A stretch of 12,529 nt of DNA, from the IMG/VR virus record IMGVR_UViG_2671180699_000002; one strand, 5' to 3'. Below are positions 136 through 8,418 of this stretch, piece after piece (position 1 is the stretch's first letter; each line of letters begins with the position of its first letter). The position numbers were made by a program, and so were the translations under genes. The stretch comes from a virus (lineage: Duplodnaviria; Heunggongvirae; Uroviricota; Caudoviricetes). The notes under the pieces are model-generated. The model was not told the origin of the DNA, ran no database searches, and worked only from the letters and a program-made list of their open reading frames with translations.

Positions 136-1185
136 TTAGGCCAGCACACCAATTGCCAGCGCGTGATCGATAAATCGAAAAATCAGCTCCAGTTGGGAGC
201 CATACTTCTCTTCAAATGCCACGGTATCCGTATGCAGTTCGTCGTGATGCTTTCTGCATAAAGGCAACACAAAAAGATCATGTGCTTTGGTTCCCATTCC
301 GCCCTGCCCGTGACCAATCAGATGATGCGGATCGTCGGCTGGCATACCGCAGCAAGCACACGGCTGTGTCTTCACCCAGCGAGTGTATTTCTCCTTAACC
401 CAGCGGCGACGTTTAGGTAGCTTCATGAAAGATTCCGGAGACTCAGGATCAACGGTGATGCTTACCACCGTCCTTTCCTGTAGTGGGTGTTGTTCCTGGT
501 GGGCGTGAGGCAACAGTGCAAGATTTTTTGTGCGCTGTTTCAATATGCTGGTGGCGGTCTGCTCTCCCGGTACGATGTCGCTTTCGCGGTACATTGAGCG
601 GATTTTTTCCGCTGGTAATCCCAGCGAGCGACGTAATACCGCTTCAGGTAGCGCATCCGCCACCTGATTTCGGACCGCCCACCAGGATAATTCAGCCAGA
701 GATAATTCACGCTCCTGCGTACCGCTTATTGCGTGACCGATGACGTCAATCATCCATGCTGACAGGTTTTGATGAGCAAGTTGCTCGAGTGATTCGGATG
801 TCTGGTCACGCAGCTGGTTGTCGCAGTGCCAGCACAACACCATTGCGCCGGTACCATAACGGTGAATGACGGTTTCACTGTGGTGATAATCGCCGTGTGG
901 CCACTGGCAGGATTTAATATGGCGCAACAGCCAGTCAGACAATGCACCAGCACCACCAGCAGCACGAATCACCCGTGCGTTACTGAAAAACGGCAGCAAT
1001 GTTTTGTCTTCCACCAGCGGCTGGCGAACGGCAGGAACGACCCCGGACGGCAGATTACGCATGCTTTTCGGTTCCGGCTCCACCAGTACCCGGGTATTGT
1101 GGAATACCGGCATGGATTCACGGCCCGGCTTAACGATCACCACCCCGAGTTCCGGTACCAGAACAGGTCGAAGTAATACCCGCAC
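136..1185 (-). CDS. ydfU: YdfU-like prophage protein, 349 aa, with Cys/His-rich C-terminal region (DUF968-type, possible HNH-like nuclease)
   Basis: Long minus-strand ORF with GTG start at 1185..1183 preceded by GGAGG (SD) 4 nt upstream; stop TAA at 138..136. C-terminal CACCG...HH...CRKHH cluster suggests metal binding. The 349-aa length and position beside rem/hok match my recollection of K-12 Qin ydfU (not verified by alignment). Confidence 0.8.
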   Translation of the reverse strand: MRVLLRPVLVPELGVVIVKPGRESMPVFHNTRVLVEPEPKSMRNLPSGVVPAVRQPLVEDKTLLPFFSNARVIRAAGGAGALSDWLLRHIKSCQWPHGDYHHSETVIHRYGTGAMVLCWHCDNQLRDQTSESLEQLAHQNLSAWMIDVIGHAISGTQERELSLAELSWWAVRNQVADALPEAVLRRSLGLPAEKIRSMYRESDIVPGEQTATSILKQRTKNLALLPHAHQEQHPLQERTVVSITVDPESPESFMKLPKRRRWVKEKYTRWVKTQPCACCGMPADDPHHLIGHGQGGMGTKAHDLFVLPLCRKHHDELHTDTVAFEEKYGSQLELIFRFIDHALAIGVLA

Positions 1186-1186
1186 G

Positions 1187-1465
1187 TTACCTCCAGATCC
1201 GTTGCTGGTATGTGCGGGATGAACGCGGTGGGCGTTCGGAGTAAGGGAGTCTGACTGAGATTATCCAGTGACGGTAGTCGAGGCTAAGAGCTTTCTTAAC
1301 CTCGTATCCGCGCCTGCGGTAACACTGAATTATCCATTCCGCCTGCTCTTCAGTGCATGGAGGATGCTGGAACCAGTCTGATTTGAATGCGTGAAAACGC
1401 CGTCCGCACCTACTGGCAAAGACGGCAGAATCATTAGAATTGTGTAATTTGGTATCGTGCGCCAT
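1187..1465 (-). CDS. rem: Rem-like small prophage protein (92 aa from the first ATG downstream of the hok terminator)
   Basis: ATG at 1465..1463; stop TAA at 1189..1187, 1 nt before the ydfU GTG (coupled). The longer six-frame ORF (to 1594) is rejected because an intrinsic terminator lies inside it. Symbol assigned by synteny with Qin (hokD-rem-ydfU); recalled K-12 Rem is 83 aa, so the start or identity is uncertain. SD is weak. Confidence 0.55.
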   Translation of the reverse strand: MAHDTKLHNSNDSAVFASRCGRRFHAFKSDWFQHPPCTEEQAEWIIQCYRRRGYEVKKALSLDYRHWIISVRLPYSERPPRSSRTYQQRIWR

Positions 1466-1536
1466 CGGTTGTCTCTGCTGGCGCAGCAGGTGCCAGTTGT
1501 TCAGGCTGGCGTGCGAATTGTAAACCAGAATGCCAG

Positions 1537-1564
1537 GAAAAAACAAAACCCGCCGAAGCGGGTT
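1537..1564 (-). terminator. Rho-independent terminator of the hok transcript
   Basis: On the minus strand AACCCGC-TTCG-GCGGGTT (7-bp stem, tetraloop) is followed directly by TTTTGTTTTTT. It lies about 70 nt downstream of the hok stop. Confidence 0.8.
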
Positions 1565-1632
1565 ACGTGCGGGTGCGTTGAGGATGCCTGACACATCAGA
1601 GGTGGCGAGGGATTTCTCCCCCGCCAGGTCTC

Positions 1633-1788
1633 TTACTCCTCAGGTTCGTAAGCTGTGAAGACAGCGACCTCCGTCTGGCCGGTTCGGATTCGTACCTCGC
1701 AGAGGTCTTTCCTCGTTACCAGTGCCGTCACTATGACGGTTAAACAGATGACGATCAGGGCGATTAACATCGCCTTTTGCTGCTTCAT
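1633..1788 (-). CDS. hokD: Hok-family type I toxin (small membrane-depolarising peptide), 51 aa
   Basis: Hand translation of the minus strand gives MKQQKAMLIALIVICLTVIVTALVTRKDLCEVRIRTGQTEVAVFTAYEPEE, which matches my recollection of E. coli HokD/RelF. ATG at 1788..1786, TAA at 1635..1633, SD AAGGAG about 10 nt upstream. The ORF is under 60 aa and so absent from the supplied track. Confidence 0.93.
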   Translation of the reverse strand: MKQQKAMLIALIVICLTVIVTALVTRKDLCEVRIRTGQTEVAVFTAYEPEE

Positions 1789-2046
1789 AGCCTGCTTCTC
1801 CTTGACCTTTCGGTCCGTAAGAGGCTAATCTCTATGTGTCGCATAGATATGGCCTCAGATTAATGTTAAGCGTCTTGCAGGACGCGTAATGTTAACTGGG
1901 GCTTTTCTCTATCTGCCTTTTGGTGTTCATGCCTGAGACAGATAGCCTCAAGCACCCGCAGTCATTCTACTTAACTAAGATTTCCCCGCAAACCGTTTTT
2001 GTCCGGCACAGTAAATATCCAACTAAACCAATGGCGTTCGCTGTAT
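1789..2046 (-). promoter_or_regulatory. hok mRNA leader region (about 260 nt) with a coupled upstream ORF and a long hairpin
   Basis: Non-coding stretch between the stop of the 59-aa membrane gene and the hok ATG. Contains a 19-codon uORF (1844..1785) whose TGA overlaps the hok ATG (ATGA), and an imperfect hairpin at 1821-1856 that covers the uORF start codon. Confidence 0.5.
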
Positions 2047-2226
2047 TTACCGCCAGTATTCAATGCACATGACCGCCATGAACACCCCTAAAAAAAGGGC
2101 ATTTATATATCCAAATATTAATATCAAAACATCAACTTTTTCCATATACCTTGCTGTGAAGATGATGGGCATACATGATACGAACAACCAGAACGCAACA
2201 AACAAAAACTGCAATGCGTTTTTCAT
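2047..2226 (-). CDS. Small hydrophobic membrane protein, 59 aa, two predicted TM helices
   Basis: ATG at 2226..2224 with AGGAGG 5 nt upstream; MKNALQFLFVAFWLFVSCMPIIFTARYMEKVDVLILIFGYINALFLGVFMAVMCIEYWR; stop TAA at 2049..2047. The longer 72-aa track ORF has no SD at its first start. Confidence 0.6.
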   Translation of the reverse strand: MKNALQFLFVAFWLFVSCMPIIFTARYMEKVDVLILIFGYINALFLGVFMAVMCIEYWR

Positions 2227-2455
2227 TATTCCTCCTACAATCAATGTGCAATTACATTTAAACACACCTCAATTTGGCCGGACATATAAATATCTAAACC
2301 AGAAAAAATCACTTACATAGCGTTACAAACTCTTTAGTCTAAATATTCATCGTAAAACATTCCCCATACTTATCAGCCCGTTCTGCGCCAGGTAGCTCAT
2401 TGCCTTATCTGGGAATCTGTAATCAGGTTTCCGGATGCTGGTGGATTTTCGCGTT

Positions 2456-2713
2456 TTAGTTGTTCATAAAAGTGCACAGCTTTAACCAGTTCTTCTGATG
2501 TAACCGGGACTGGCGGGGCAGTGAATAAGGCCTGAATTTCATAGTTCGGCCTGTCGTTACAATCCTCTTTTTTCGGTACATATTTCCAGTCACCAGACCA
2601 CTACTTCCCCTGAAAGTCCGTAACGCCTTTTTTTTCACGTAGCGATATCGCCATGCCACTGTTTTTGCTTGCCCCGCCGTTTCATGCCCTTCCTGATAAT
2701 TAACCTCGCTCAT
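2456..2713 (-). CDS. Possible small, very basic protein, 85 aa
   Basis: ATG at 2713..2711 overlaps the TGA of the upstream 58-aa ORF (ATGA). K/R-rich product. Contains several rare AGG/CGA codons and an A8 run, so it may not be a real gene. Confidence 0.25.
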   Translation of the reverse strand: MSEVNYQEGHETAGQAKTVAWRYRYVKKKALRTFRGSSGLVTGNMYRKKRIVTTGRTMKFRPYSLPRQSRLHQKNWLKLCTFMNN

Positions 2714-2886
2714 TCATCGCCCCACTCATCACAATATGCTTCGACCGGAGTTTTTCCTGCTTCATAATCATCACGCCATGCTTCAGCATCAGCAGCACTG
2801 CCACCACGTAACTCTGCATAGTCCATTAACAGTTCATGCCATTCTTCAAAACTGACGTTGTATTTAGTTGAACCAAAATCAGCCAT
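2710..2886 (-). CDS. Small acidic protein, 58 aa (MADFGSTKYNVSFEEWHELLMDYAELRGGSAADAEAWRDDYEAGKTPVEAYCDEWGDE)
   Basis: Hand-translated. ATG at 2886..2884 with GAGGAAG SD 7-8 nt upstream; overlaps the stop of the 60-aa ORF by 8 nt; E. coli-like codon usage. Below the track's 60-aa cutoff. Confidence 0.5.
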   Translation of the reverse strand: MADFGSTKYNVSFEEWHELLMDYAELRGGSAADAEAWRDDYEAGKTPVEAYCDEWGDE

Positions 2887-3061
2887 TTTGTTCTTCCTCT
2901 TCGTCTTTTATTTCGTGATATGAGTAATTGCAGTAGTTAAAGAAAATATCTTTTGCTTCGTCATGTATTTCATCAGGCGTCGCATCATCATCCACTTCGA
3001 ATTCATCCTCGAAATCTCCACCGGCTATTCCCGTTTCAATAATTATTTTAAACTTTCGCAT
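2879..3061 (-). CDS. Small, strongly acidic protein, 60 aa (about one third D/E)
   Basis: ATG at 3061..3059; stop TGA at 2881..2879. Upstream on the mRNA: AGGAGG, then a 6-bp GC hairpin, then 8 nt, then ATG. Confidence 0.6.
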   Translation of the reverse strand: MRKFKIIIETGIAGGDFEDEFEVDDDATPDEIHDEAKDIFFNYCNYSYHEIKDEEEEQNG

Positions 3062-3068
3062 TTAACTA

Positions 3069-3084
3069 CCGCCCTTTCGGGCGG
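3069..3084 (-). other. GC-rich stem-loop (CCGCCC-TTTC-GGGCGG) between an SD-like AGGAGG and the start codon of the 60-aa gene
   Basis: Perfect 6-bp inverted repeat with a 4-nt loop. Not followed by a T-tract on either strand, so it is not a canonical intrinsic terminator. Confidence 0.6.
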
Positions 3085-3154
3085 CCTCCTGATGTTCTGA
3101 GGGTGCAGAAATCCCTCCGGTTAAGGATTAAATTTTTAACAGAGCTAAATTTAA

Positions 3155-3511
3155 TTATTCAGTTCTGGATTTTGTCGCCCTGCGTATCCGCGCTTTCGCG
3201 TTACGCTCAATCTGAATTAGCTTTTCTATATTTTTTCGCCTTTCCCGCTCCTCCTGACGCAAGAGCCTTACATCATCTGCCAGTCTGGTTTCTCTTTTCG
3301 CCACAGAGAGCATCCAGTCAAATGGCTCCACAACTGCACCGCAGATTTTACAGCGGACCTGACGCTCTTTTTCGTCAACCCGGACAGAGGCGTGATGACA
3401 ATATGGTCTTTCCGATGGCTCATAAAGAAAATTAACCTGATTACGAGGGTCATCCTCTTTTACCGGAAATAAAACGATATTGCTTAACTCATCCTCTGGT
3501 TTTATTTCCAT
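3155..3511 (-). CDS. Hypothetical protein, 118 aa, with Zn-ribbon-like Cys/His motif and basic coiled-coil C-terminus
   Basis: ATG at 3511..3509 preceded by AAGGAGAGGAG. An alternative GTG start at 3568 (137 aa) also has an AGGAGG about 11 nt upstream. Motif YCHH...CKICG; C-terminal R/E/K-rich helix. Confidence 0.65.
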   Translation of the reverse strand: MEIKPEDELSNIVLFPVKEDDPRNQVNFLYEPSERPYCHHASVRVDEKERQVRCKICGAVVEPFDWMLSVAKRETRLADDVRLLRQEERERRKNIEKLIQIERNAKARIRRATKSRTE

Positions 3512-3568
3512 GCTCCTCTCCTTTGATGCGAATGCCAGCGGTAATTGAAGCCTGATAGCTAATTTCAC

Positions 3569-3991
3569 TCACAGTACCGCCTCCTGAAAATTACCCTGAT
3601 AGAAAGCCAGTACACGCTGCATAGCTTCACTCTTCCGGCACTCGCGACAGATTATGTTTAGGCGACTGTCGTAGCGACGTATTTCTCCGTCAGGTGATGA
3701 CCAGATAAGGTCCGGATCAACCACAGCAGGTTTCTTCACCTTTGCCCTCGAGAGTTTTTTGCGGGCGTTTTGCCAGTCCTTACGCGCCTGTTCAGAGGGG
3801 AATAACCCGTAGCCGGAGTTGTATACATCGCCGCTGGCAACCAGCTCTCTTGCGAGAACGCTCATCAGATATCTTGTCGCACCTGTCTTGACTTCCAGTT
3901 GCCGTAACGTCTCACGCCCACTCTGGCGTACGAGTTCAACAACCTGCCCTTTAATTTTTTCTCGCTCTTCTTGTGTAAAAACTTTTGCCAC
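3569..3991 (-). CDS. Hypothetical protein, 140 aa, with probable N-terminal winged-helix/HTH DNA-binding region
   Basis: GTG start at 3991..3989 with AGGAGGG 4-5 nt upstream; stop TGA at 3571..3569. Sits immediately downstream of the O-like gene, where a helicase loader is normally found, but is too short and has no Walker motif. Confidence 0.7.
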   Translation of the reverse strand: MAKVFTQEEREKIKGQVVELVRQSGRETLRQLEVKTGATRYLMSVLARELVASGDVYNSGYGLFPSEQARKDWQNARKKLSRAKVKKPAVVDPDLIWSSPDGEIRRYDSRLNIICRECRKSEAMQRVLAFYQGNFQEAVL

Positions 3992-4031
3992 AAGCCCTCC
4001 TGAAAATTACCTCATGACCAGAAATCAACAC

Positions 4032-5102
4032 TTACCCCCTGAAGCCCGGTGGAATTTCGGTATCCGGTTCAGAAATATGATTCACACAACGCTGGTTGTT
4101 CGTGCCGCTTACCGGGAGCAACCAGGGGTTCTCAAAATTCCGGTCCGGTCCAAAAAACGTCGTCGCTCGCTGAACAAATTCCGTTCCCGTTTTCCCGGTA
4201 GCCGCCAAGTATCTTGCGTAACGCCTCACGCCATCCAGCATGGCCTCTGGTGGCACCCCCTCGCGTAATCTGGCCTTCCAGGCACTGAAAGCGGATTTCT
4301 TCGGGTTTGCTCCGGCACGCAACGGGTACTCCCGCCAGACCTGTTCGAACACATCCGGATAATCCACTCGTCCCACAGACAGCCCGGTGTTTTCCGGGAC
4401 TACCCGATCGGCTTCCCGCTGAATGGCGGAATCGGCTTCAGGCTGCTGCAGTTGGTGTGATTGCTCCGGCCTTGGGGTCATCACCTGCTGCACAGCGCCC
4501 GAATCGGCTTTCAGCGCATACGCTGAATCGGCTTCCGGTGTCGTGCCTGCTGGCTGACCAGGATTGACGGTCTGAACATCCCCTGCCTGGTTCGTGGCGT
4601 TTTTTACGCCATGGACCATAGTGTTTTGATCTTCTTGATCTGTATCTTTATCTGTATCTTTATCTGTCGTGACTCGTCGTGACATGTGCGTGACATTTCG
4701 TGACGCGCCGTGACAATCGCCATTTTGTTCCCGCTTTCTTTCCCTCTCTCGCTGCGCCCTCTTGCGCTCTGCCGGAGATTTTGCGGTTTGCGAAATATTG
4801 CCGTTGTCCTCTTTCAGCACCTGGCGTTTTTCCCATCCAGTGATTAAATCACCATCAAGTACCCGCCCCTGCATCGTCTGCAAAATTGAATCAATTACCT
4901 CTTCTGTCACGTCGAGCGCACTTGCCAAATCTTCTGTCGTGACATCAATGTGACCTCGCGTGACATTTCGTGACGCGCTCACCAGGAGGTGGATATACAC
5001 TGCCATCACTGTTGCAATTGGCTGCCCTGACACCCTGGCAATTGTTCGCCACTTAGGGTCATTTGGCATGTCATGCCATAATCTGAGCCAGGCGTTAGCC
5101 AT
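4032..5102 (-). CDS. Phage replication initiation protein (lambda O-like replisome organiser) containing the probable origin
   Basis: ATG at 5102..5100 with GAGGTGAGT SD (the track ORF starts 2 codons earlier at a GTG). Position after cro/cII; iteron-like CGTGAC repeats and an AT-rich tandem repeat lie inside the coding sequence; acidic, repetitive mid-protein linker (DKDTDKDTD). Confidence 0.85.
   Translation of the reverse strand: MANAWLRLWHDMPNDPKWRTIARVSGQPIATVMAVYIHLLVSASRNVTRGHIDVTTEDLASALDVTEEVIDSILQTMQGRVLDGDLITGWEKRQVLKEDNGNISQTAKSPAERKRAQRERERKREQNGDCHGASRNVTHMSRRVTTDKDTDKDTDQEDQNTMVHGVKNATNQAGDVQTVNPGQPAGTTPEADSAYALKADSGAVQQVMTPRPEQSHQLQQPEADSAIQREADRVVPENTGLSVGRVDYPDVFEQVWREYPLRAGANPKKSAFSAWKARLREGVPPEAMLDGVRRYARYLAATGKTGTEFVQRATTFFGPDRNFENPWLLPVSGTNNQRCVNHISEPDTEIPPGFRG
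4637..4672. repeat. AT-rich tandem repeat, 12-bp unit ATCTGTATCTTT (2 full copies plus a partial third) inside the O-like gene
   Basis: Direct inspection of 4637-4672; encodes the DKDTDKDTD linker; immediately adjacent to iteron cluster A. Confidence 0.85.
4668..4714. repeat. Iteron cluster A: five direct CGTGAC repeats spaced 10-11 bp (candidate ori)
   Basis: CGTGAC begins at 4668, 4678, 4689, 4699 and 4709. One-helical-turn phasing inside the initiator gene, as in lambda ori. Confidence 0.75.
4938..4978. repeat. Iteron cluster B: four (C/T)GTGAC repeats spaced 10-11 bp, including a 21-bp exact copy of part of cluster A
   Basis: Repeats begin at 4938, 4949, 4959 and 4969. GCGTGACATTTCGTGACGCGC is identical at 4688-4708 and 4958-4978. 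Confidence 0.7.
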
Positions 5103-5173
5103 ACTCACCTCTTCTGATACCGAATCTTTTTACTCACGAGTTGCCGGAAGCGATTCGATATGGCTATTGTCAG

Positions 5174-5599
5174 TCAATGTACTGCCACAGCATTTCCTGC
5201 CGGGCCACCACGGTTCATCTGATTGAAACCGGCGATTGCCACTGCGACAAAATCATCAGCGTCTCTCACCAGTCGCTCCCGCGTCTCCACCAGCTCCCGA
5301 AAATAAGCTGAACTGTGGCTGCGCATTCTGGCCACCAGCAAAGGTGGCATTGCCTTTTCGATCGCTGGTAACAACGCCTGAATTTTTTCAACTGCATCAG
5401 GGGTGTCTTTCTCTACCCAGCGGAAAATTTTCTGGGTATTGCGAGCCAGGGCTTCCGGATGGCTGTCGTCATACAGTTCCGGGAACGTCATTCCCAGCTC
5501 GAAATACGCTTTGGTAATTTTCGCAGCCGGTACTTTTTCGCCGTCCGGATGCGCCCAGGCATTCATCGCCATGCGGATGTGTTCATGCTTGATTTTCAT
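5174..5599 (-). CDS. CII-like / YdaT-family regulatory protein, 141 aa
   Basis: ATG at 5599..5597 overlaps the TGA of the cro-like gene (ATGA). N-terminus MKIKHEHI resembles my recollection of Rac YdaT, recalled as a functional CII analogue. Position cro - cII-like - O-like. Confidence 0.75.
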   Translation of the reverse strand: MKIKHEHIRMAMNAWAHPDGEKVPAAKITKAYFELGMTFPELYDDSHPEALARNTQKIFRWVEKDTPDAVEKIQALLPAIEKAMPPLLVARMRSHSSAYFRELVETRERLVRDADDFVAVAIAGFNQMNRGGPAGNAVAVH

Positions 5600-5826
5600 G
5601 AATCCCCCCCTTGGTTAGAAGGCGGATTATGATCAGAACCGGGAATGACAACCGTCGGTATGTGTAACTCATATTTGAGCGCCCCGGCAGTGACTGCCTG
5701 AATTAGCAACGCCCATTTCCACGGAACCTCTTCCCCCCACATGCTGACTGTGGTTTTTGACGTTCCTAGAGCTGCGGCTGTTTTAACAACTCCGCCAAAA
5801 TAGCCTAATACTTCTGATTTTTTCAT
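5596..5826 (-). CDS. Cro-like HTH repressor (DicC/YdaS family), 76 aa from ATG 5826
   Basis: Divergent from the CI-like gene. GGAG precedes ATG 5826; an alternative ATG at 5838 would add MERL. The pattern resembles DicC as I recall it, but is not identical. Confidence 0.8.
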   Translation of the reverse strand: MKKSEVLGYFGGVVKTAAALGTSKTTVSMWGEEVPWKWALLIQAVTAGALKYELHIPTVVIPGSDHNPPSNQGGDS

Positions 5827-5838
5827 GAGTCGCTCCAT

Positions 5839-5917
5839 AAAACTGAACGTCAAAAGTTTAATAATCAAAACCAAAGAAAGTCAAGAAACAAAACCATCTG
5901 TGTTTTAAAATCAAAAC
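5839..5917. promoter_or_regulatory. Divergent immunity switch (PR-like and PRM-like promoters with candidate operators)
   Basis: Two 16-bp near-identical sites, GTTTAATAATCAAAAC (5856-5871) and GTTTTAAAATCAAAAC (5902-5917), each with inverted GTTT(T)/AAAAC half-sites. A minus-strand TTGACT (5884..5879) and TATTAA (5863..5858) pair is a candidate PR. A plus-strand TAAAAT (5906-5911) sits 6 nt before the cI ATG, which has no SD. Confidence 0.55.
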
Positions 5918-6556
5918 ATGAGCAAGCAAACTATATCTGAACGCATAACCCAACGTATGCATGCGCTAAACCTGAAAGGCAAAGACCTTGTCAATGGCAC
6001 TGGCGCATCAAAAGGCTCCGTAAGTCAATGGATGAACGGTGGAGGAGCGCCGTCCTCGCGTTACATAAGTTCACTGGCAAAAATATTGAAAGTAAACGAA
6101 AATTGGCTTCTTAATGGAGGAGAGTTAAATACAGGTGATTCGCTTGATCTATCTTTACCGCCGATAAAAACGGTTCCGCTACTATCACTTCAGCAGGCAG
6201 CAAGCTGGAGTGATTATATGAAAAATTCCTCAATAACCTCTTGTGTGCAGCTTGTCGGAGAAATCCCGGTCAATACCTTTGCAGTTGTTCTAGAGAGTGA
6301 CAGTATGTCAACATCTGGTGGGGGAGTTTCCATCCCAAATGGTTCAACAGTTTTTGTTGATCCCGATCGAACCGTACAACCAGGAAATATTGTCCTTGCC
6401 TTACCCAAAGGGACCACAACACCTGTCATTCGTAAACTGGAGATAGAAGGGCCGGATATTCTTTTAGTCCCCACGAATCCTCGCTACCCTTCAATTATGC
6501 TGGATGATCTATCTTGCATATTGGGCGTATGCTTTAAAATTCAACAAGATATTTAA
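5918..6556 (+). CDS. CI-like prophage repressor: N-terminal HTH plus C-terminal S24 (LexA-like) autopeptidase domain, 212 aa
   Basis: N-terminal HTH region (KGKDLVNGTGASKGSVSQWMNG); C-terminal ESDSMS serine motif and downstream RKLE lysine, typical of LexA/CI/UmuD self-cleaving proteins. Divergent from the cro-like gene. Confidence 0.9.
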   Translation: MSKQTISERITQRMHALNLKGKDLVNGTGASKGSVSQWMNGGGAPSSRYISSLAKILKVNENWLLNGGELNTGDSLDLSLPPIKTVPLLSLQQAASWSDYMKNSSITSCVQLVGEIPVNTFAVVLESDSMSTSGGGVSIPNGSTVFVDPDRTVQPGNIVLALPKGTTTPVIRKLEIEGPDILLVPTNPRYPSIMLDDLSCILGVCFKIQQDI

Positions 6557-6620
6557 CCAACCTCATCTATTTGATTAACTGTATGCCATCGTGGTGATGG
6601 CTTAACAGCTGCCTGCTTAA

Positions 6621-6669
6621 AATGTTTTGATAAAAAAACATTGACCTGGAAAGTTCGTCTTTCTAAACT
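6621..6669 (+). promoter_or_regulatory. Candidate pL/PdicB-like promoter with overlapping palindromic operator
   Basis: Inverted repeat AATGTTTT-gataaa-AAAACATT (6621-6642) overlaps a TTGACC -35 (6641-6646); 17-bp spacer; TAAACT -10 (6664-6669). Located between the cI stop and ydfA. Confidence 0.45.
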
Positions 6670-6848
6670 TCATTCATTCCCTCACCCCATCCTACAGAAT
6701 GCAGGGCAATACTTCGAGTTACCAGGCAGTGGTCAGGGGTTAAGTAGCCAGCCCGAGGCGTAAGAACATGACGGCAGGGTTCAACTTTAATAACTATGCA
6801 GCAGGTTTTTGTTCCGCTACCCCGGCGTTAAGGGGAAATGAGGTCAGC

Positions 6849-7004
6849 ATGGATACTATCGATCTTGGCAACAACGAATCTCTGGTGTACGGCGTGTTTC
6901 CAAACCAGGACGGCACCTTCACCGCAATGACGTATACCAAAAGCAAAACGTTTAAAACCGAAAATGGTGCCCGTCGCTGGCTGGAAAGAAACTCAGGTGA
7001 GTGA
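6849..7004 (+). CDS. ydfA: YdfA-like small protein, 51 aa
   Basis: ATG at 6849 with GAGG 5 nt upstream: MDTIDLGNNESLVYGVFPNQDGTFTAMTYTKSKTFKTENGARRWLERNSGE. The 51-aa length and position match Qin ydfA as I recall it. The track ORF starts in frame at 6768 (78 aa), a possible alternative start. Confidence 0.65.
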   Translation: MDTIDLGNNESLVYGVFPNQDGTFTAMTYTKSKTFKTENGARRWLERNSGE

Positions 7005-7005
7005 T

Positions 7006-7134
7006 ATGGATTTTGACACAATCATGGAAAAGGCTTACGAAGAATACTTCGAAGGCCTTGCCGAAGGCGAAGAAGCTCACAGCTTCAACGAATTTAAACA
7101 GGCGCTTTCCAGTTCGGCAAAATCTAACGGCTGA
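7006..7134 (+). CDS. ydfB: YdfB-like small acidic protein, 42 aa
   Basis: Hand-translated: MDFDTIMEKAYEEYFEGLAEGEEAHSFNEFKQALSSSAKSNG. AGGTGA SD 5 nt upstream; starts 2 nt after the ydfA stop. The 42-aa length and position match Qin ydfB as recalled. Below the track cutoff. Confidence 0.6.
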   Translation: MDFDTIMEKAYEEYFEGLAEGEEAHSFNEFKQALSSSAKSNG

Positions 7135-7163
7135 TAAGCGAAACAGCACCGCGAGGAATCAGT

Positions 7164-7382
7164 ATGCAGAAACGAGAACCCGTCATCATCGCGCCAGACT
7201 ATACCGATGATGAACTTTATGAGTGGATGCGCCAGAAAATTAATGCAGCGCAGGATCTGAAATGGGCCAATGAAGCCAGGGCTAAGCAGGCTGAAAATCT
7301 GTCCGCTCTGGAGCAGGATATCACCAATCTGGAAAAAGCAGCGGCATTAAGCATTGCCAGAATGATTACATACCCGCGTTAA
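7164..7382 (+). CDS. ydfC: YdfC-like protein, 72 aa
   Basis: ATG at 7164 with GAGGAA 5 nt upstream; length and position match Qin ydfC as recalled. Confidence 0.8.
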   Translation: MQKREPVIIAPDYTDDELYEWMRQKINAAQDLKWANEARAKQAENLSALEQDITNLEKAAALSIARMITYPR

Positions 7383-7722
7383 TAGCTAACCAACGAAGCT
7401 AAGGTTGGTAATTAAGGAGTTCTCCACGGGTGAGGTGGAGTGCGTGCGCCGGACACGGGTGAGCATCCGGCACTGACAGTTTACTGAAAGGATATTTCCC
7501 TGAAAAGTCAGACCATAACGCGAAAGCGCACGGCGAGGTAGCTGGTTCATAGATAGCCTGTCGTTAAATTTTCGTCGACCGTGCGCTTCCGGTTGTGGCA
7601 ACCCGCGAAATGGTGCGGCGGTAAGTATGGCGGGGTTATTTCTTCCCCGTTGAGGACACCGGGTTGTCAGGTTGACCATACGCTTAAGTGACAACCCCGC
7701 TGCAACGCCCTCTGTTATCAAT

Positions 7723-7775
7723 TTTCTGGTGACGTTTGGCGGTATCAGTTTTACTCCGTGACTGCTCTGCCGCCC
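7723..7775 (+). ncRNA. dicF: DicF small regulatory RNA (cell-division inhibitor; base-pairs with ftsZ mRNA)
   Basis: The sequence TTTCTGGTGACGTTTGGCGGTATCAGTTTTACTCCGTGACTGCTCTGCCGCCC matches my recollection of the 53-nt DicF RNA. It ends in a GGCGG...CCGCC hairpin followed by TTTTT, and sits between ydfC and dicB as in Qin. Confidence 0.88.
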
Positions 7776-7780
7776 TTTTT
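7738..7780 (+). terminator. DicF 3' stem-loop and U-tract (intrinsic terminator)
   Basis: GGCGG (7738-7742) pairs with CCGCC (7770-7774), with inner CAGT/ACTG pairing; followed by TTTTT at 7776-7780. Confidence 0.75.
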
Positions 7781-7949
7781 AAAGTGAATTTTGTGATGTG
7801 GTGAATGCGGCTGAGCGCACGCGGAACAGTTAAAACCAAAAACAGTGTTATGGGTGGATTCTCTGTATCCGGCGTTAATTGTTAACTGGTTAACGTCACC
7901 TGGAGGCACCAGGCACTGCATCACAAAATTCATTGTTGAGGACGCGATA

Positions 7950-8138
7950 ATGAAAACGTTATTACCAAACGTTAATACGTCTGAAGGTTGTTTTGAAATT
8001 GGTGTCACTATCAGTAACCCAGTATTTACTGAAGATGCCATTAACAAGAGAAAACAAGAACGGGAGCTATTAAATAAAATATGCATTGTTTCAATGCTGG
8101 CTCGTTTACGTCTGATGCCAAAAGGATGTGCACAATGA
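7950..8138 (+). CDS. dicB: DicB cell-division inhibitor (acts through MinC), 62 aa
   Basis: MKTLLPNVNTSEGCFEIGVTISNPVFTEDAINKRKQERELLNKICIVSMLARLRLMPKGCAQ matches my recollection of DicB. GAGGA SD 7 nt upstream. The track ORF 7845-8138 is a spurious N-terminal extension. Confidence 0.92.
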   Translation: MKTLLPNVNTSEGCFEIGVTISNPVFTEDAINKRKQERELLNKICIVSMLARLRLMPKGCAQ

Positions 8139-8326
8139 ATTCAGCATTTGTGCTTGTTCTGACAGTTTTTCTTGTTTCCGGAGAGCCAGTTGATATTGCA
8201 GTCAGTGTTCACAGGACAATGCAGGAGTGTATGACTGCAGCAACCGAACAGAAAATTCCCGGTAACTGTTACCCGGTCGATAAAGTTATTCACCAGGATA
8301 ATATCGAAATCCCGGCAGGTCTTTAA
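8135..8326 (+). CDS. ydfD: YdfD-like small protein with N-terminal TM helix, 63 aa (lysis-inducing in K-12 as I recall)
   Basis: ATG at 8135 overlaps the dicB TGA (ATGA): MNSAFVLVLTVFLVSGEPVDIAVS... Length and position match Qin ydfD as recalled. Confidence 0.8.
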   Translation: MNSAFVLVLTVFLVSGEPVDIAVSVHRTMQECMTAATEQKIPGNCYPVDKVIHQDNIEIPAGL

Positions 8327-8418
8327 AACAGTTCCGTAATAAATATCCGGTTTCATTCTTATATGCCAGCAATGGCAGGGATTTGTTCATCCTTAAATCT
8401 GTCATGAGGTTAAAACAA

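What the first reader, a model, noticed from the sequence alone, without database searches (positions are those of the whole stretch)
1537..2046. Intact stand-alone hok toxin with a long leader, a translationally coupled upstream ORF and a start-codon-occluding hairpin, but no relBE
The toxin sequence matches HokD/RelF as I recall it. In K-12 (from memory) hokD is the third gene of relB-relE-hokD and is thought to have lost its own regulatory elements. Here the gene has a roughly 260-nt leader instead. A 19-codon uORF (MRHIEISLLRTERSRRSRL, 1844..1785) ends in a TGA overlapping the hok ATG, resembling mok-hok coupling. A long imperfect hairpin at 1821-1856 covers the uORF start. A plus-strand TTGACC(1802-1807)-17bp-CTAATC(1825-1830) pair could drive an antisense Sok-like RNA across that start region. 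A clean intrinsic terminator follows. This may be an ancestral, functional version of the locus.
Basis: partly seen in the sequence, partly recalled or inferred. Interest (0 to 1): 0.55.

Follow-up and report, generated by a model that had tools for sequence, protein, structure and literature searches.

The report
Complete prophage hok/mok/sok toxin–antitoxin locus
This is an intact, ordinary copy of the well-known hok/sok toxin–antisense RNA killer module sitting in a lambda-like prophage; about four in five E. coli genomes carry such a copy, and a near-twin (hokW-sokW) has already been studied experimentally.

Summary
The features are real. The minus strand carries a 51-aa Hok toxin identical to K-12 HokD (1788..1633). 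A 19-codon mok ORF (1844..1785) ends in a UGA that overlaps the hok AUG. A conserved hairpin lies over the mok start (1856..1821), and an intrinsic terminator follows (1564..1547). There is no relBE.

By homology the whole locus is a complete hok/mok/sok type I toxin-antitoxin module:
- The hok mRNA starts at G1957, so the leader is 169 nt, not ~260.
- Its 5' end (tac) pairs with a 3' fbi box (1583..1571).
- An antisense Sok RNA is predicted at 1838-1912(+), from TTGACC-18-TAATCT.

The fold is conserved with compensatory changes across 105 distinct loci.

K-12 hokD shares only the last ~17 nt before the AUG, but it keeps an orphan fbi.

The locus is not new:
- The full leader occurs in 4297 of 5426 complete E. 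coli genomes; the relE-hokD junction occurs in 1167.
- Rfam RF01794 scores the leader at 106.7 bits.
- Phage records annotate mok/hok.

Verdict: already known, low interest.

The parts
1964..1969 (-). hok promoter -10 box TAGAAT. A weak -35 (TTGCGG/TTTGCG) lies around 1986-1992.
   Evidence: Read from the sequence. It sits 6 nt upstream of the homology-defined +1. A TAGAAT/TATAAT/TATATT box is kept at the same place across alignment A3. It was not called by the consensus scan.
1541..1957 (-). Full-length hok mRNA of about 417 nt. The +1 is G1957 and the 3' end lies after the terminator U-run.
   Evidence: The Rfam RF01794 match starts at 1957. The 5' end aligns with the R1-type hok mRNA 5' end. 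The fold has an MFE of -175.2 kcal/mol, z = -9.6.
1946..1957 (-). tac element, GGGUGCUUGAGG, at the 5' end of the mRNA.
   Evidence: It pairs with fbi in the full-length MFE. Across 105 loci the helix is 95.2% paired, with compensatory changes at 4 of 12 pairs.
1929..1955 (-). Alternative 5' hairpin formed by tac when fbi is absent (metastable or active-form hairpin).
   Evidence: It forms in the fold of the 3'-truncated RNA. It is 98.4% paired across 105 loci. Alignment column 48 covaries with both of its alternative partners.
1898..1902 (-). Anti-SD (ucb) GCCCC, which pairs with the mok Shine-Dalgarno in the closed form.
   Evidence: These are the outer pairs of helix 4 in the full-length MFE. 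They are conserved, with AU<->GC changes. The model is as described in PMC9841398.
1821..1856 (-). Sok-target hairpin holding the mok SD (GAGG, 1856..1853) and the mok AUG.
   Evidence: -12.9 kcal/mol, z = -3.9. The base helix is pairable in 105 of 105 loci. It corresponds to a hairpin in the Rfam consensus structure.
1785..1844 (-). mok ORF of 19 codons, with a UGA stop overlapping the hok AUG (AUGA).
   Evidence: Translation. The mok ATG is conserved at -56, -57 or -58 in nearly all loci.
1798..1802 (-). hok Shine-Dalgarno AGGAG, sequestered by CUCUU just downstream of the target hairpin.
   Evidence: Helix 6 of the MFE, 97.6% paired.
1633..1788 (-). hok CDS, 51 aa, identical to HokD.
1650..1665 (-). 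Downstream box that pairs with the hok start region (1793..1779).
   Evidence: Helix 8: 96% paired, with 3 compensatory pairs. G-U pairs valid only on the sense strand outnumber those valid only on the antisense strand, 102 to 5.
1604..1625 (-). 3' stem-loop GGCGGGGGAGAAAUCCCUCGCC. It is expected to protect the processed mRNA from 3' exonucleases.
   Evidence: Helices 16-17 are 82-98% paired with compensatory changes. The role is inferred from R1 data in PMC9841398.
1571..1583 (-). fbi element, CCUCAACGCACCC.
   Evidence: It pairs with tac. It lies within the exact match to the published hokW primer YO-350 at 1575-1599. It is also retained in K-12.
1537..1564 (-). Intrinsic terminator of the hok mRNA.
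   Evidence: 7-bp stem, 5 of them G-C, GCTTCGGC-type loop, then TTGTTTTTT.
1802..1831 (+). Sok promoter: -35 TTGACC (1802-1807), 18-bp spacer, -10 TAATCT (1826-1831).
   Evidence: A homologous arrangement is kept in 104 of 105 loci. It aligns with the sequence just upstream of the annotated K-12 sokC and sokB and with the R1-type Sok strand.
1838..1912 (+). Predicted Sok antisense RNA, about 75 nt. It has a single-stranded 5' tail over the mok AUG, a long hairpin (1851-1903) and a UUUUCUCU tail.
   Evidence: The ends are set by alignment to the annotated K-12 sokC. The fold is -31.9 kcal/mol, z = -5.7. In this helix, G-U pairs valid only on the antisense strand outnumber sense-only ones, 23 to 7.

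Best explanation
The region 1537-1992 is a complete hok/mok/sok type I toxin-antitoxin locus of the hokD/hokW subtype. It lies in the rightward early (nin) region of a lambdoid prophage, between the replication genes and DUF968-RusA-Q.

Mechanism, inferred by homology to plasmid R1 hok/sok:
1. A weak promoter makes a stable ~417-nt hok mRNA.
2. Its 5' tac box pairs with the 3' fbi box. The mok SD is held by an upstream GCCCC box, and the hok SD and AUG are held by local and downstream boxes. The full-length RNA is therefore neither translated nor bound by Sok.
3. Slow 3' trimming removes fbi. The 5' end then refolds and exposes the mok SD and start in a hairpin.
4. While the ~75-nt antisense Sok RNA (1838-1912, +) is being made, it pairs with that hairpin and the duplex is cut by RNase III.
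5. When Sok transcription stops, ribosomes translate the 19-codon mok. They run through the hok SD, stop on the UGA that overlaps the hok AUG, and thereby open and load the hok start.
6. The 51-aa Hok inserts into the inner membrane and depolarises the cell.

Shown here: the sequence elements, their homology, and conservation and covariation of the fold. Inferred: the transcripts, the processing, RNase III cleavage and killing.

The most likely biological role follows the Sp5 hokW-sokW precedent: a membrane-damaging helper switched on when the prophage is induced. Killing of cells that lose the prophage, or abortive infection, are alternatives.
For: - Pfam HOK_GEF at 82.9 bits.
- Rfam RF01794 covers 1957..1786 end to end (model positions 1-157 of 157) at 106.7 bits, gathering score 59. 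That is comparable with K-12 hokC (118.3), K-12 hokB (109.7), the Stx2-phage hokW-type locus (113.5) and R1-type hok (88.9).
- The R1-type locus aligns from the mRNA 5' end to the terminator.
- The full-length fold closes 5' on 3'.
- On 105 distinct loci the MFE structure is 91.0% paired, against 37-42% for slid controls. 49 pairs change on both sides, and 0 of 500 shuffles reach any of the five measures.
- The alternative 5' hairpin is 98.4% paired. Column 48 changes together with both of its alternative partners: T/A/A in 89 loci, C/G/G in 11.
- The antisense promoter is kept in 104 of 105 loci.
- The Sok ends map onto the annotated sokC. The Sok hairpin folds at z = -5.7.
- The R1 literature states that mok translation is needed only as far as the hok SD and start (PMC9841398). 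The 19-codon mok meets that requirement.
- HokW-sokW has a 90.7% identical leader and a toxin identical at 47 of 51 residues, and its published primers match the window. It was shown to be toxic, to be neutralised by sokW from its own promoter with partial RNase III and Hfq dependence, and to be activated on mitomycin C induction (PMC8621323).
- HokD peptide is listed as toxic in bioRxiv 10.1101/2025.08.07.668861.
Against: - There is no transcript, processing or toxicity evidence for this particular copy.
- Both promoters fall below the consensus-scan threshold.
- Conservation of the Sok promoter is confounded. Its -35 overlaps the complement of the hok SD region, and its -10 overlaps the target hairpin.
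- The MFE of the truncated RNA reproduces the 5' hairpin but not every detail of the published R1 'open' form.
- Covariation counts come from related sequences and reflect few independent events. The C/G/G triple occurs in Photorhabdus and one Pantoea locus only.
- Chromosomal hokA, hokB and hokC loci were reported unable to mediate post-segregational killing (summarised in the bioRxiv preprint).
Confidence: 0.88

Rival explanations
1. The locus is an intact-looking but silent relic. It keeps all sequence elements but never delivers Hok at physiologically relevant levels, as has been argued for chromosomal hokA, hokB and hokC.
For: - Chromosomal hok loci failed post-segregational killing and rifampicin activation tests (summarised in bioRxiv 10.1101/2025.08.07.668861).
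- The hok promoter has a weak -35, and neither promoter was called by the scan.
Against: - All elements are intact, and the fold is under visible constraint across 105 loci.
- The hok CDS is nearly invariant (pi about 0-0.03) among 66 prophage copies, while the Sok recognition site diversifies. That pattern is hard to get without selection.
- The sibling hokW-sokW is active in its native prophage (PMC8621323).
- R1 hok is toxic from a single chromosomal copy when Sok is removed (PMC9841398).
Confidence: 0.1
2. Same molecular mechanism, different role. The module mainly stabilises the prophage by killing cells that lose it, or acts as an abortive-infection defence against other phages, rather than helping lysis.
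For: - R1 hok/sok mediates post-segregational killing and phage exclusion (cited in PMC8621323 and in the bioRxiv preprint).
- hok is enriched in prophages and in large low-copy plasmids.
- hokD-type loci also sit on ~95-100 kb non-mobilizable plasmids.
Against: - The only direct experiment on a prophage copy found a role in lysis and phage release, and no growth effect of deleting the locus in uninduced cells.
- No enrichment near defence systems was found.
- Nothing in this window distinguishes the roles.
Confidence: 0.35
3. The leader is a decayed relBE remnant, and hok is expressed as the tail of an upstream operon, as in K-12.
For: Only the K-12 precedent (relB-relE-hokD).
Against: - There is no relB or relE similarity in the window.
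- The leader aligns with R1-type hok/sok and with the Rfam model, not with relE.
- 78 of 80 IMG/VR loci with identical HokD carry this leader.
Confidence: 0.01

Closest known systems
hokW-sokW of Sakai prophage 5 / Stx2 phages (Takada et al. 2021, PMC8621323)
   Same: - It is a stand-alone hok/sok locus in a lambdoid prophage with no relBE.
- The leader is 169 nt and 90.7% identical.
- The tac and fbi boxes are the same.
- The toxin is identical at 47 of 51 residues.
- The published primers match the window.
   Different: - HokW has a different C-terminal tail (VDYESEK against TAYEPEE).
- Its mok is in frame with hok, giving a 70-aa ORF, whereas here mok has 19 codons and stops on the hok AUG.
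- The loop around the mok start differs.
- In Stx2 phage I it sits next to ea-type genes rather than in the nin region.
hok/mok/sok of plasmid R1 and IncF plasmids
   Same: The architecture matches element by element: tac, the 5' hairpin, the anti-SD box, the target hairpin with mok SD and AUG, 19 mok codons before the hok AUG, hok, the 3' stem-loop, fbi, the terminator, and the position of the antisense promoter.
   Different: - Only about 74% of aligned columns are identical.
- In R1, mok continues out of frame through hok for 70 codons.
- The Sok hairpin here is about 20 nt longer.
- The host replicon is a prophage, not a plasmid.
K-12 relB-relE-hokD (Qin prophage)
   Same: The hokD CDS is identical, the 3' UTR is nearly identical, and the position in the prophage is equivalent, upstream of DUF968 (ydfU) and Q.
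   Different: In K-12, everything upstream of about -17 is replaced by relE. There is no tac, mok, target hairpin or Sok, and fbi is left without a partner.
K-12 chromosomal hokC/mokC/sokC and hokB/mokB/sokB
   Same: They belong to the same Rfam family on the same strand, and their annotated Sok RNAs align with the predicted Sok here.
   Different: - mokC is in frame with hokC, and mokB overlaps hokB out of frame.
- The hokC locus is flanked by IS186 in K-12.
- The toxins are roughly 80% identical to HokD (hokC-type loci).

Membership tests
[quoted passage not shown] | Small hydrophobic Hok/Gef-family toxin ORF | tested here: met
   PF01848 at 82.9 bits against a cut-off of 22. The protein is identical to K-12 HokD.
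[quoted passage not shown] | Conserved hok mRNA leader (sequence and structure profile) | tested here: met
   RF01794 matched full length at 106.7 bits against a gathering score of 59. The model lies on the hok-sense strand, as it does at K-12 hokC and hokB.
[quoted passage not shown] | Long-range 5' tac / 3' fbi pairing that closes the full-length mRNA | tested here: met
   It is present in the MFE. It is 95.2% paired across 105 loci with 4 compensatory pairs.
[quoted passage not shown] | Alternative pairing of tac once fbi is removed (refolding switch) | tested here: met
   The truncated RNA forms the 5' hairpin. That hairpin is 98.4% paired, and there is three-way covariation.
[quoted passage not shown] | mok ORF with its own SD, translated at least up to the hok SD and start | tested here: met
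   A 19-codon ORF follows a GAGG SD and ends on the hok AUG. The requirement is as stated in PMC9841398. The frame differs from R1.
[quoted passage not shown] | cis-antisense Sok gene: promoter inside mok, 5' tail over the mok start, terminator hairpin | tested here: met
   Met at the sequence and homology level only. No transcript data are available.
[quoted passage not shown] | 3' processing of hok mRNA, RNase III cleavage of the Sok-hok duplex, unstable Sok against stable hok mRNA | not testable with these tools
   Needs northern blots, RNA half-life measurements and an rnc mutant. It has been shown for R1 and in part for hokW-sokW (PMC9841398, PMC8621323).
[quoted passage not shown] | Toxicity of Hok and its neutralisation by Sok | not testable with these tools
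   The HokD peptide is reported toxic (bioRxiv 10.1101/2025.08.07.668861). The sibling HokW is neutralised by sokW (PMC8621323).
relBE-hokD operon (K-12 type) | relB and relE immediately upstream, with hokD as third gene and no hok leader | tested here: not met
   There is no relBE in the window. A full leader is present instead.

The most novel reading that the evidence does not exclude
Two details might carry some new biology.

1. The window's allele has a 'minimal' mok: 19 codons, with a UGA overlapping the hok AUG. It is one of three frame arrangements that interchange among near-identical loci. It could set a different coupling efficiency, through termination-reinitiation, than the in-frame Mok-Hok fusion or the R1-type overlap.

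2. The patch around the mok SD and start, which is the Sok recognition site, is by far the most variable part of loci that encode identical toxins. Co-resident copies usually differ there. This would fit diversifying selection that insulates the several hok/sok copies in one genome from each other's Sok.
Probability: 0.25. Interest if true: 0.35.

Novelty: already known. Interest (0 to 1): 0.12.

Why it matters
It matters mainly as a correction of perspective. The textbook K-12 hokD, a toxin gene tacked onto relBE with no regulation of its own, is the minority, derived form. The common E. coli form is a complete, self-regulated hok/mok/sok module carried by lambdoid prophages and phage-like plasmids.

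RefSeq annotates only the hokD CDS at these loci, so mok and Sok go unrecorded in thousands of genomes. For this window nothing new needs explaining: the locus can be annotated by homology with high confidence.

Tried and rejected
- **relE-remnant idea.** Rejected. The K-12 alignment shows unrelated sequence upstream of about -17, and tblastn finds no RelB or RelE in the window.
- **Consensus promoter/terminator scan.** It found the hok terminator but neither promoter nor the Sok terminator. The promoters therefore rest on homology and conservation, not on consensus strength.
Replaced by TAATCT with an 18-bp spacer, on alignment to the sokC, sokB and R1-type Sok strands.
- **Recollection that phage 933W carries hokW.** The AF125520 stretch 10000-24000 has no hok annotation, so I do not use that claim. 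The hokW literature refers to Sp5 (PMC8621323).
- **Reading the Rfam 'sok' hit as evidence for the antisense RNA.** Rejected. At K-12 hokC and hokB the model hits the strand opposite to the annotated sokC and sokB, so it models the hok leader.
- **First genome-contig scan.** It failed and was repeated successfully.
- **A paper search for 'sokD'.** It returned nothing relevant.
- **The MFE of the truncated RNA.** Not taken as a faithful picture of the active form.

Full report
**1. What is in the sequence**

On the minus strand, 1788..1633 encodes a 51-aa peptide identical to K-12 HokD. It matches Pfam Hok/Gef at 82.9 bits against a cut-off of 22.

Upstream, 1844..1785 is a 19-codon ORF, MRHIEISLLRTERSRRSRL. 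Its UGA overlaps the hok AUG as AUGA.

TTGACC (1802-1807) and CTAATC (1825-1830) are on the plus strand as stated. A canonical intrinsic terminator lies at 1564..1547. No RelB or RelE coding potential exists anywhere in the window.

**2. Context**

The window is the early region of a lambdoid prophage.
- On the minus strand, upstream to downstream: Cro, a YdaT-family protein, a replication-organiser-like protein, DUF977, small nin-type ORFs, the hok locus and DUF968.
- On the plus strand: an S24-peptidase cI-type repressor, DicF sRNA (7724-7775), an exonuclease, an excisionase and an integrase.

hok therefore lies in, and in the same direction as, the rightward early operon. This is the equivalent of the hokD position in K-12 Qin, upstream of ydfU and Q.

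The window is 98% identical to a prophage of strain FDAARGOS_536 over 143-8411. It diverges in the exonuclease and integrase modules.

**3. Comparison with K-12**

Aligning 1500-2060 with K-12 relE-hokD shows identity only from about 17 nt before the hokD AUG, through the CDS and 3' UTR, to the terminator. Upstream of that point K-12 has relE, and the window has unrelated sequence.

K-12 still carries the box CCUCAACGCACCC downstream of hokD. In the window that box pairs with the mRNA 5' end. In K-12 it has no partner.

**4. Comparison with R1 hok/sok and Rfam**

My recalled R1 hok mRNA sequence matched IncF plasmids at 100%. One such locus (p1658/97) aligns with the window from the mRNA 5' end (R1-type GGCGCUUGAGGC against GGGUGCUUGAGGC at 1957) to the terminator.

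Rfam RF01794 covers 1957..1786 over its whole length at 106.7 bits. That is similar to its scores on K-12 hokC, K-12 hokB, a Stx2-phage hokW-type locus and the R1-type locus.

One caution applies. Although named 'sok', this model sits on the hok-sense strand. At K-12 hokC and hokB it hits the strand opposite to the annotated sokC and sokB. It therefore identifies the hok leader and fixes its 5' end, but it is not evidence for the antisense RNA.

With +1 at G1957, 7 nt after a TAGAAT box at 1969..1964, the leader is 169 nt to the hok AUG, not ~260.

**5. The fold**

- The full-length RNA (1957..1541) has an MFE of -175.2 kcal/mol, z = -9.6. Its first 12 nt pair with 1583..1571; this is the tac/fbi pairing.
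- In the same structure the mok SD (GAGG, 1856..1853) pairs with GCCCC (1902..1898). The hok SD pairs with CUCUU. The hok start region (1793..1779) pairs with 1665..1650.
- Removing the 3' end up to fbi makes the 5' end fold back on itself as a hairpin at 1955..1929.
- This matches the published R1 model: a closed full-length form and an open 3'-processed form (PMC9841398).

**6. Conservation**

I collected 80 IMG/VR loci encoding identical HokD and 53 loci from other species' genomes: Escherichia, Shigella, Kluyvera, Pseudocitrobacter, Citrobacter, Photorhabdus, Pantoea and Erwinia. I then aligned 105 distinct sequences.

- The window's full-length MFE structure is 91.0% paired across them, against 37-42% when partners are slid. 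49 pairs change on both sides, and no shuffle out of 500 reaches any of the five measures.
- The tac/fbi helix is 95.2% paired, with compensatory changes at 4 of 12 pairs.
- The alternative 5' hairpin is 98.4% paired.
- One tac position changes together with both of its alternative partners: T/A/A in 89 loci and C/G/G in 11. From my own knowledge, this is the signature of mutually exclusive pairings described for the hok family (Gultyaev, Franch and Gerdes 1997). The C/G/G state is confined to Photorhabdus and one Pantoea locus, so it represents few independent events.

**7. The antisense gene**

At the position homologous to the R1 Sok promoter, 104 of 105 loci keep TTG(A/C)C(C/T), a 17- or 18-bp spacer, and a hexamer with A at position 2 and T at position 6. 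The window has TTGACC-18-TAATCT, among the best matches.

Alignment with the annotated K-12 sokC (59 nt) places the predicted Sok at 1838-1912 (+), 75 nt. It has a single-stranded 5' tail complementary to the mok AUG. A long hairpin follows (-31.9 kcal/mol, z = -5.7), extended by about 20 nt relative to sokC, and then UUUUCUCU.

In the helix that corresponds to this hairpin, wobble pairs valid only on the antisense strand outnumber sense-only ones, 23 to 7. In two mRNA-only helices the ratios are 19 to 102 and 5 to 102. This is modest support for constraint on the Sok strand.

The promoter conservation is confounded by overlapping constraints from the hok SD and the target hairpin.

**8. mok**

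The mok AUG is conserved, but its frame relative to hok is not.
- Most loci have it at -57, in frame with hok. This gives a 70-aa Mok-Hok ORF, as annotated for K-12 mokC/hokC and ORF-33c of Stx2 phage I.
- R1-type and some other loci have it at -58, overlapping out of frame. K-12 mokB likewise overlaps hokB out of frame.
- The window's type has it at -56, which gives 19 codons and a stop on the hok AUG.

R1 genetics show that mok must be translated up to the hok SD and start, and that translation beyond the start is dispensable (PMC9841398). The short mok should therefore be fully competent for coupling.

This allele is not a private mutation. A 74-nt query spanning it is covered at 80% or more in 1216 of 5426 complete E. 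coli genomes.

**9. How common, and how well known**

| Query | Complete E. coli genomes covered at ≥80% (of 5426) |
|---|---|
| 201 nt: leader plus hok start | 4297 (median 2 matching places per genome, up to 9) |
| 201 nt: K-12 relE-hokD junction | 1167 |

- Of 80 viral contigs with identical HokD, 78 have the leader and 2 have relE.
- The locus is present in sequenced phages such as mEp460, Evi, Tritos and Stx phages. Some records annotate it as 'MokW', 'host killer protein' or 'mok'/'hok'.
- It is also present on ~95-100 kb non-mobilizable plasmids of several genera.
- A preprint catalogues Hok enrichment in prophages (bioRxiv 10.1101/2025.08.07.668861).
- Most directly, Takada et al. (PMC8621323) characterised hokW-sokW of Sakai prophage Sp5. 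HokW is toxic. sokW expressed from its own promoter neutralises it, with partial dependence on RNase III and Hfq. Mitomycin C induction depletes sokW and raises HokW in a RecA-dependent way. Deleting the locus delays lysis and halves phage yield.
- Their primers match the window exactly at 1575-1599 and with two mismatches at 1928-1952.
- The hokW-type locus of Stx2 phage I has a leader of the same length that is 90.7% identical, and a toxin identical at 47 of 51 residues.

**10. Verdict**

The locus is, however, a routine member of a thoroughly studied family, and its closest relative has been tested experimentally.

What remains unshown for this copy is expression, processing and killing. 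The biological role (lysis helper, prophage stabiliser or abortive infection) cannot be decided from sequence.

Two minor points may deserve a specialist's glance. One is the three interchangeable mok frames. The other is the sharply localised hypervariability at the Sok recognition site: nucleotide diversity is 0.19-0.32 at 1852-1829, against about 0 in the hok CDS, among 66 loci encoding the same toxin. Co-resident copies usually differ there.

Noticed in passing
window 7724-7775 (+): DicF sRNA matched full length (Rfam RF00039, 76.7 bits). By similarity to the FDAARGOS_536 prophage it lies among ydfA/B/C- and dicB/ydfD-type genes. The prophage therefore carries a Qin-type dic region together with an apparently intact cI-type repressor, Cro, excisionase and integrase.
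   Followed up: partly
window 1786-1957 (-); L139 402-554; L140 567-718: Rfam family RF01794, named 'sok antitoxin', actually models the hok-sense leader. At K-12 hokC and hokB it hits the strand opposite to the annotated sokC and sokB. A hit to it should not be read as detection of the antisense RNA.
   Followed up: yes
window 1785-1844 (-) and the homologous stretch of L004-L135: The mok start lies at -56, -57 or -58 relative to the hok AUG in otherwise very similar loci. This gives a 19-codon ORF that stops on the hok AUG, an in-frame 70-aa Mok-Hok fusion, or an R1-type out-of-frame overlap. The peptide itself seems unconstrained.
   Followed up: partly
window 1829-1852 (-), alignment A3 columns 151-180: The mok SD/start loop, which is the Sok recognition site, is sharply hypervariable. 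Nucleotide diversity is 0.19-0.32 there, against about 0-0.03 in the hok CDS, among 66 loci encoding identical HokD. In genomes with several copies the copies mostly carry different loop variants (3 of 3 differ in E. coli ECMA0423 and in S. flexneri SFBU1023). This is suggestive of insulation against cross-talk.
   Followed up: partly
window 1640-1656 (-), hok codon Tyr47: TACGAA is invariant in all 105 loci, and the Tyr codon is always TAC. It is flanked by a 3-bp stem that covaries: CAG/CUG, CGG/CCG, UGG/CCA. The result is a tRNA-Arg anticodon-arm-like hairpin presenting UACG. This fits the reported TadA A-to-I editing (Tyr to Cys) of hok mRNAs, mentioned in bioRxiv 10.1101/2025.08.07.668861.
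   Followed up: partly
L108 (Kluyvera sp. CHPC 1.2972), L124, L035, L039, L087: The relE-hok junction sequence of K-12 also occurs in a Kluyvera genome, in front of a Hok only 70% identical to HokD. The relBE-hok fusion is therefore not peculiar to E. coli K-12 and may recombine with different hok alleles.
   Followed up: no
window 2050-2226 (-): A 59-aa strongly hydrophobic ORF (MKNALQFLFVAFWLFVSC...) ends about 50 nt upstream of the hok promoter. It is unannotated in the near-identical RefSeq genome, has no Pfam match, and was found in only 3 phage records (labelled 'hornerin' or hypothetical).
   Followed up: partly
plasmid hits H28-H47: Full-length hokD-type loci, about 90% identical, sit on ~90-120 kb plasmids of E. 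coli, Salmonella, Klebsiella and Cronobacter. Across all 594 matching plasmid records, 473 are typed non-mobilizable. They may be phage-plasmids.
   Followed up: no
L098 (Acinetobacter idrijaensis, 275-bp contig), L103 (Xanthomonas pisi, 431-bp contig), H85 (Actinobacillus phage vB_Apl-pPE4): Near-identical E. coli-type hokD sequence turns up in records of unrelated taxa, on very short contigs or in a phage labelled as infecting Actinobacillus. It looks like contamination or mislabelling.
   Followed up: no
H4, H5 (NZ_CM136163.1, NZ_CM136161.1): In two E. coli genomes the 901-bp region around hokD is split by an IS200C insertion. This recalls the IS elements next to hokA, hokC and hokE in K-12.
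   Followed up: no
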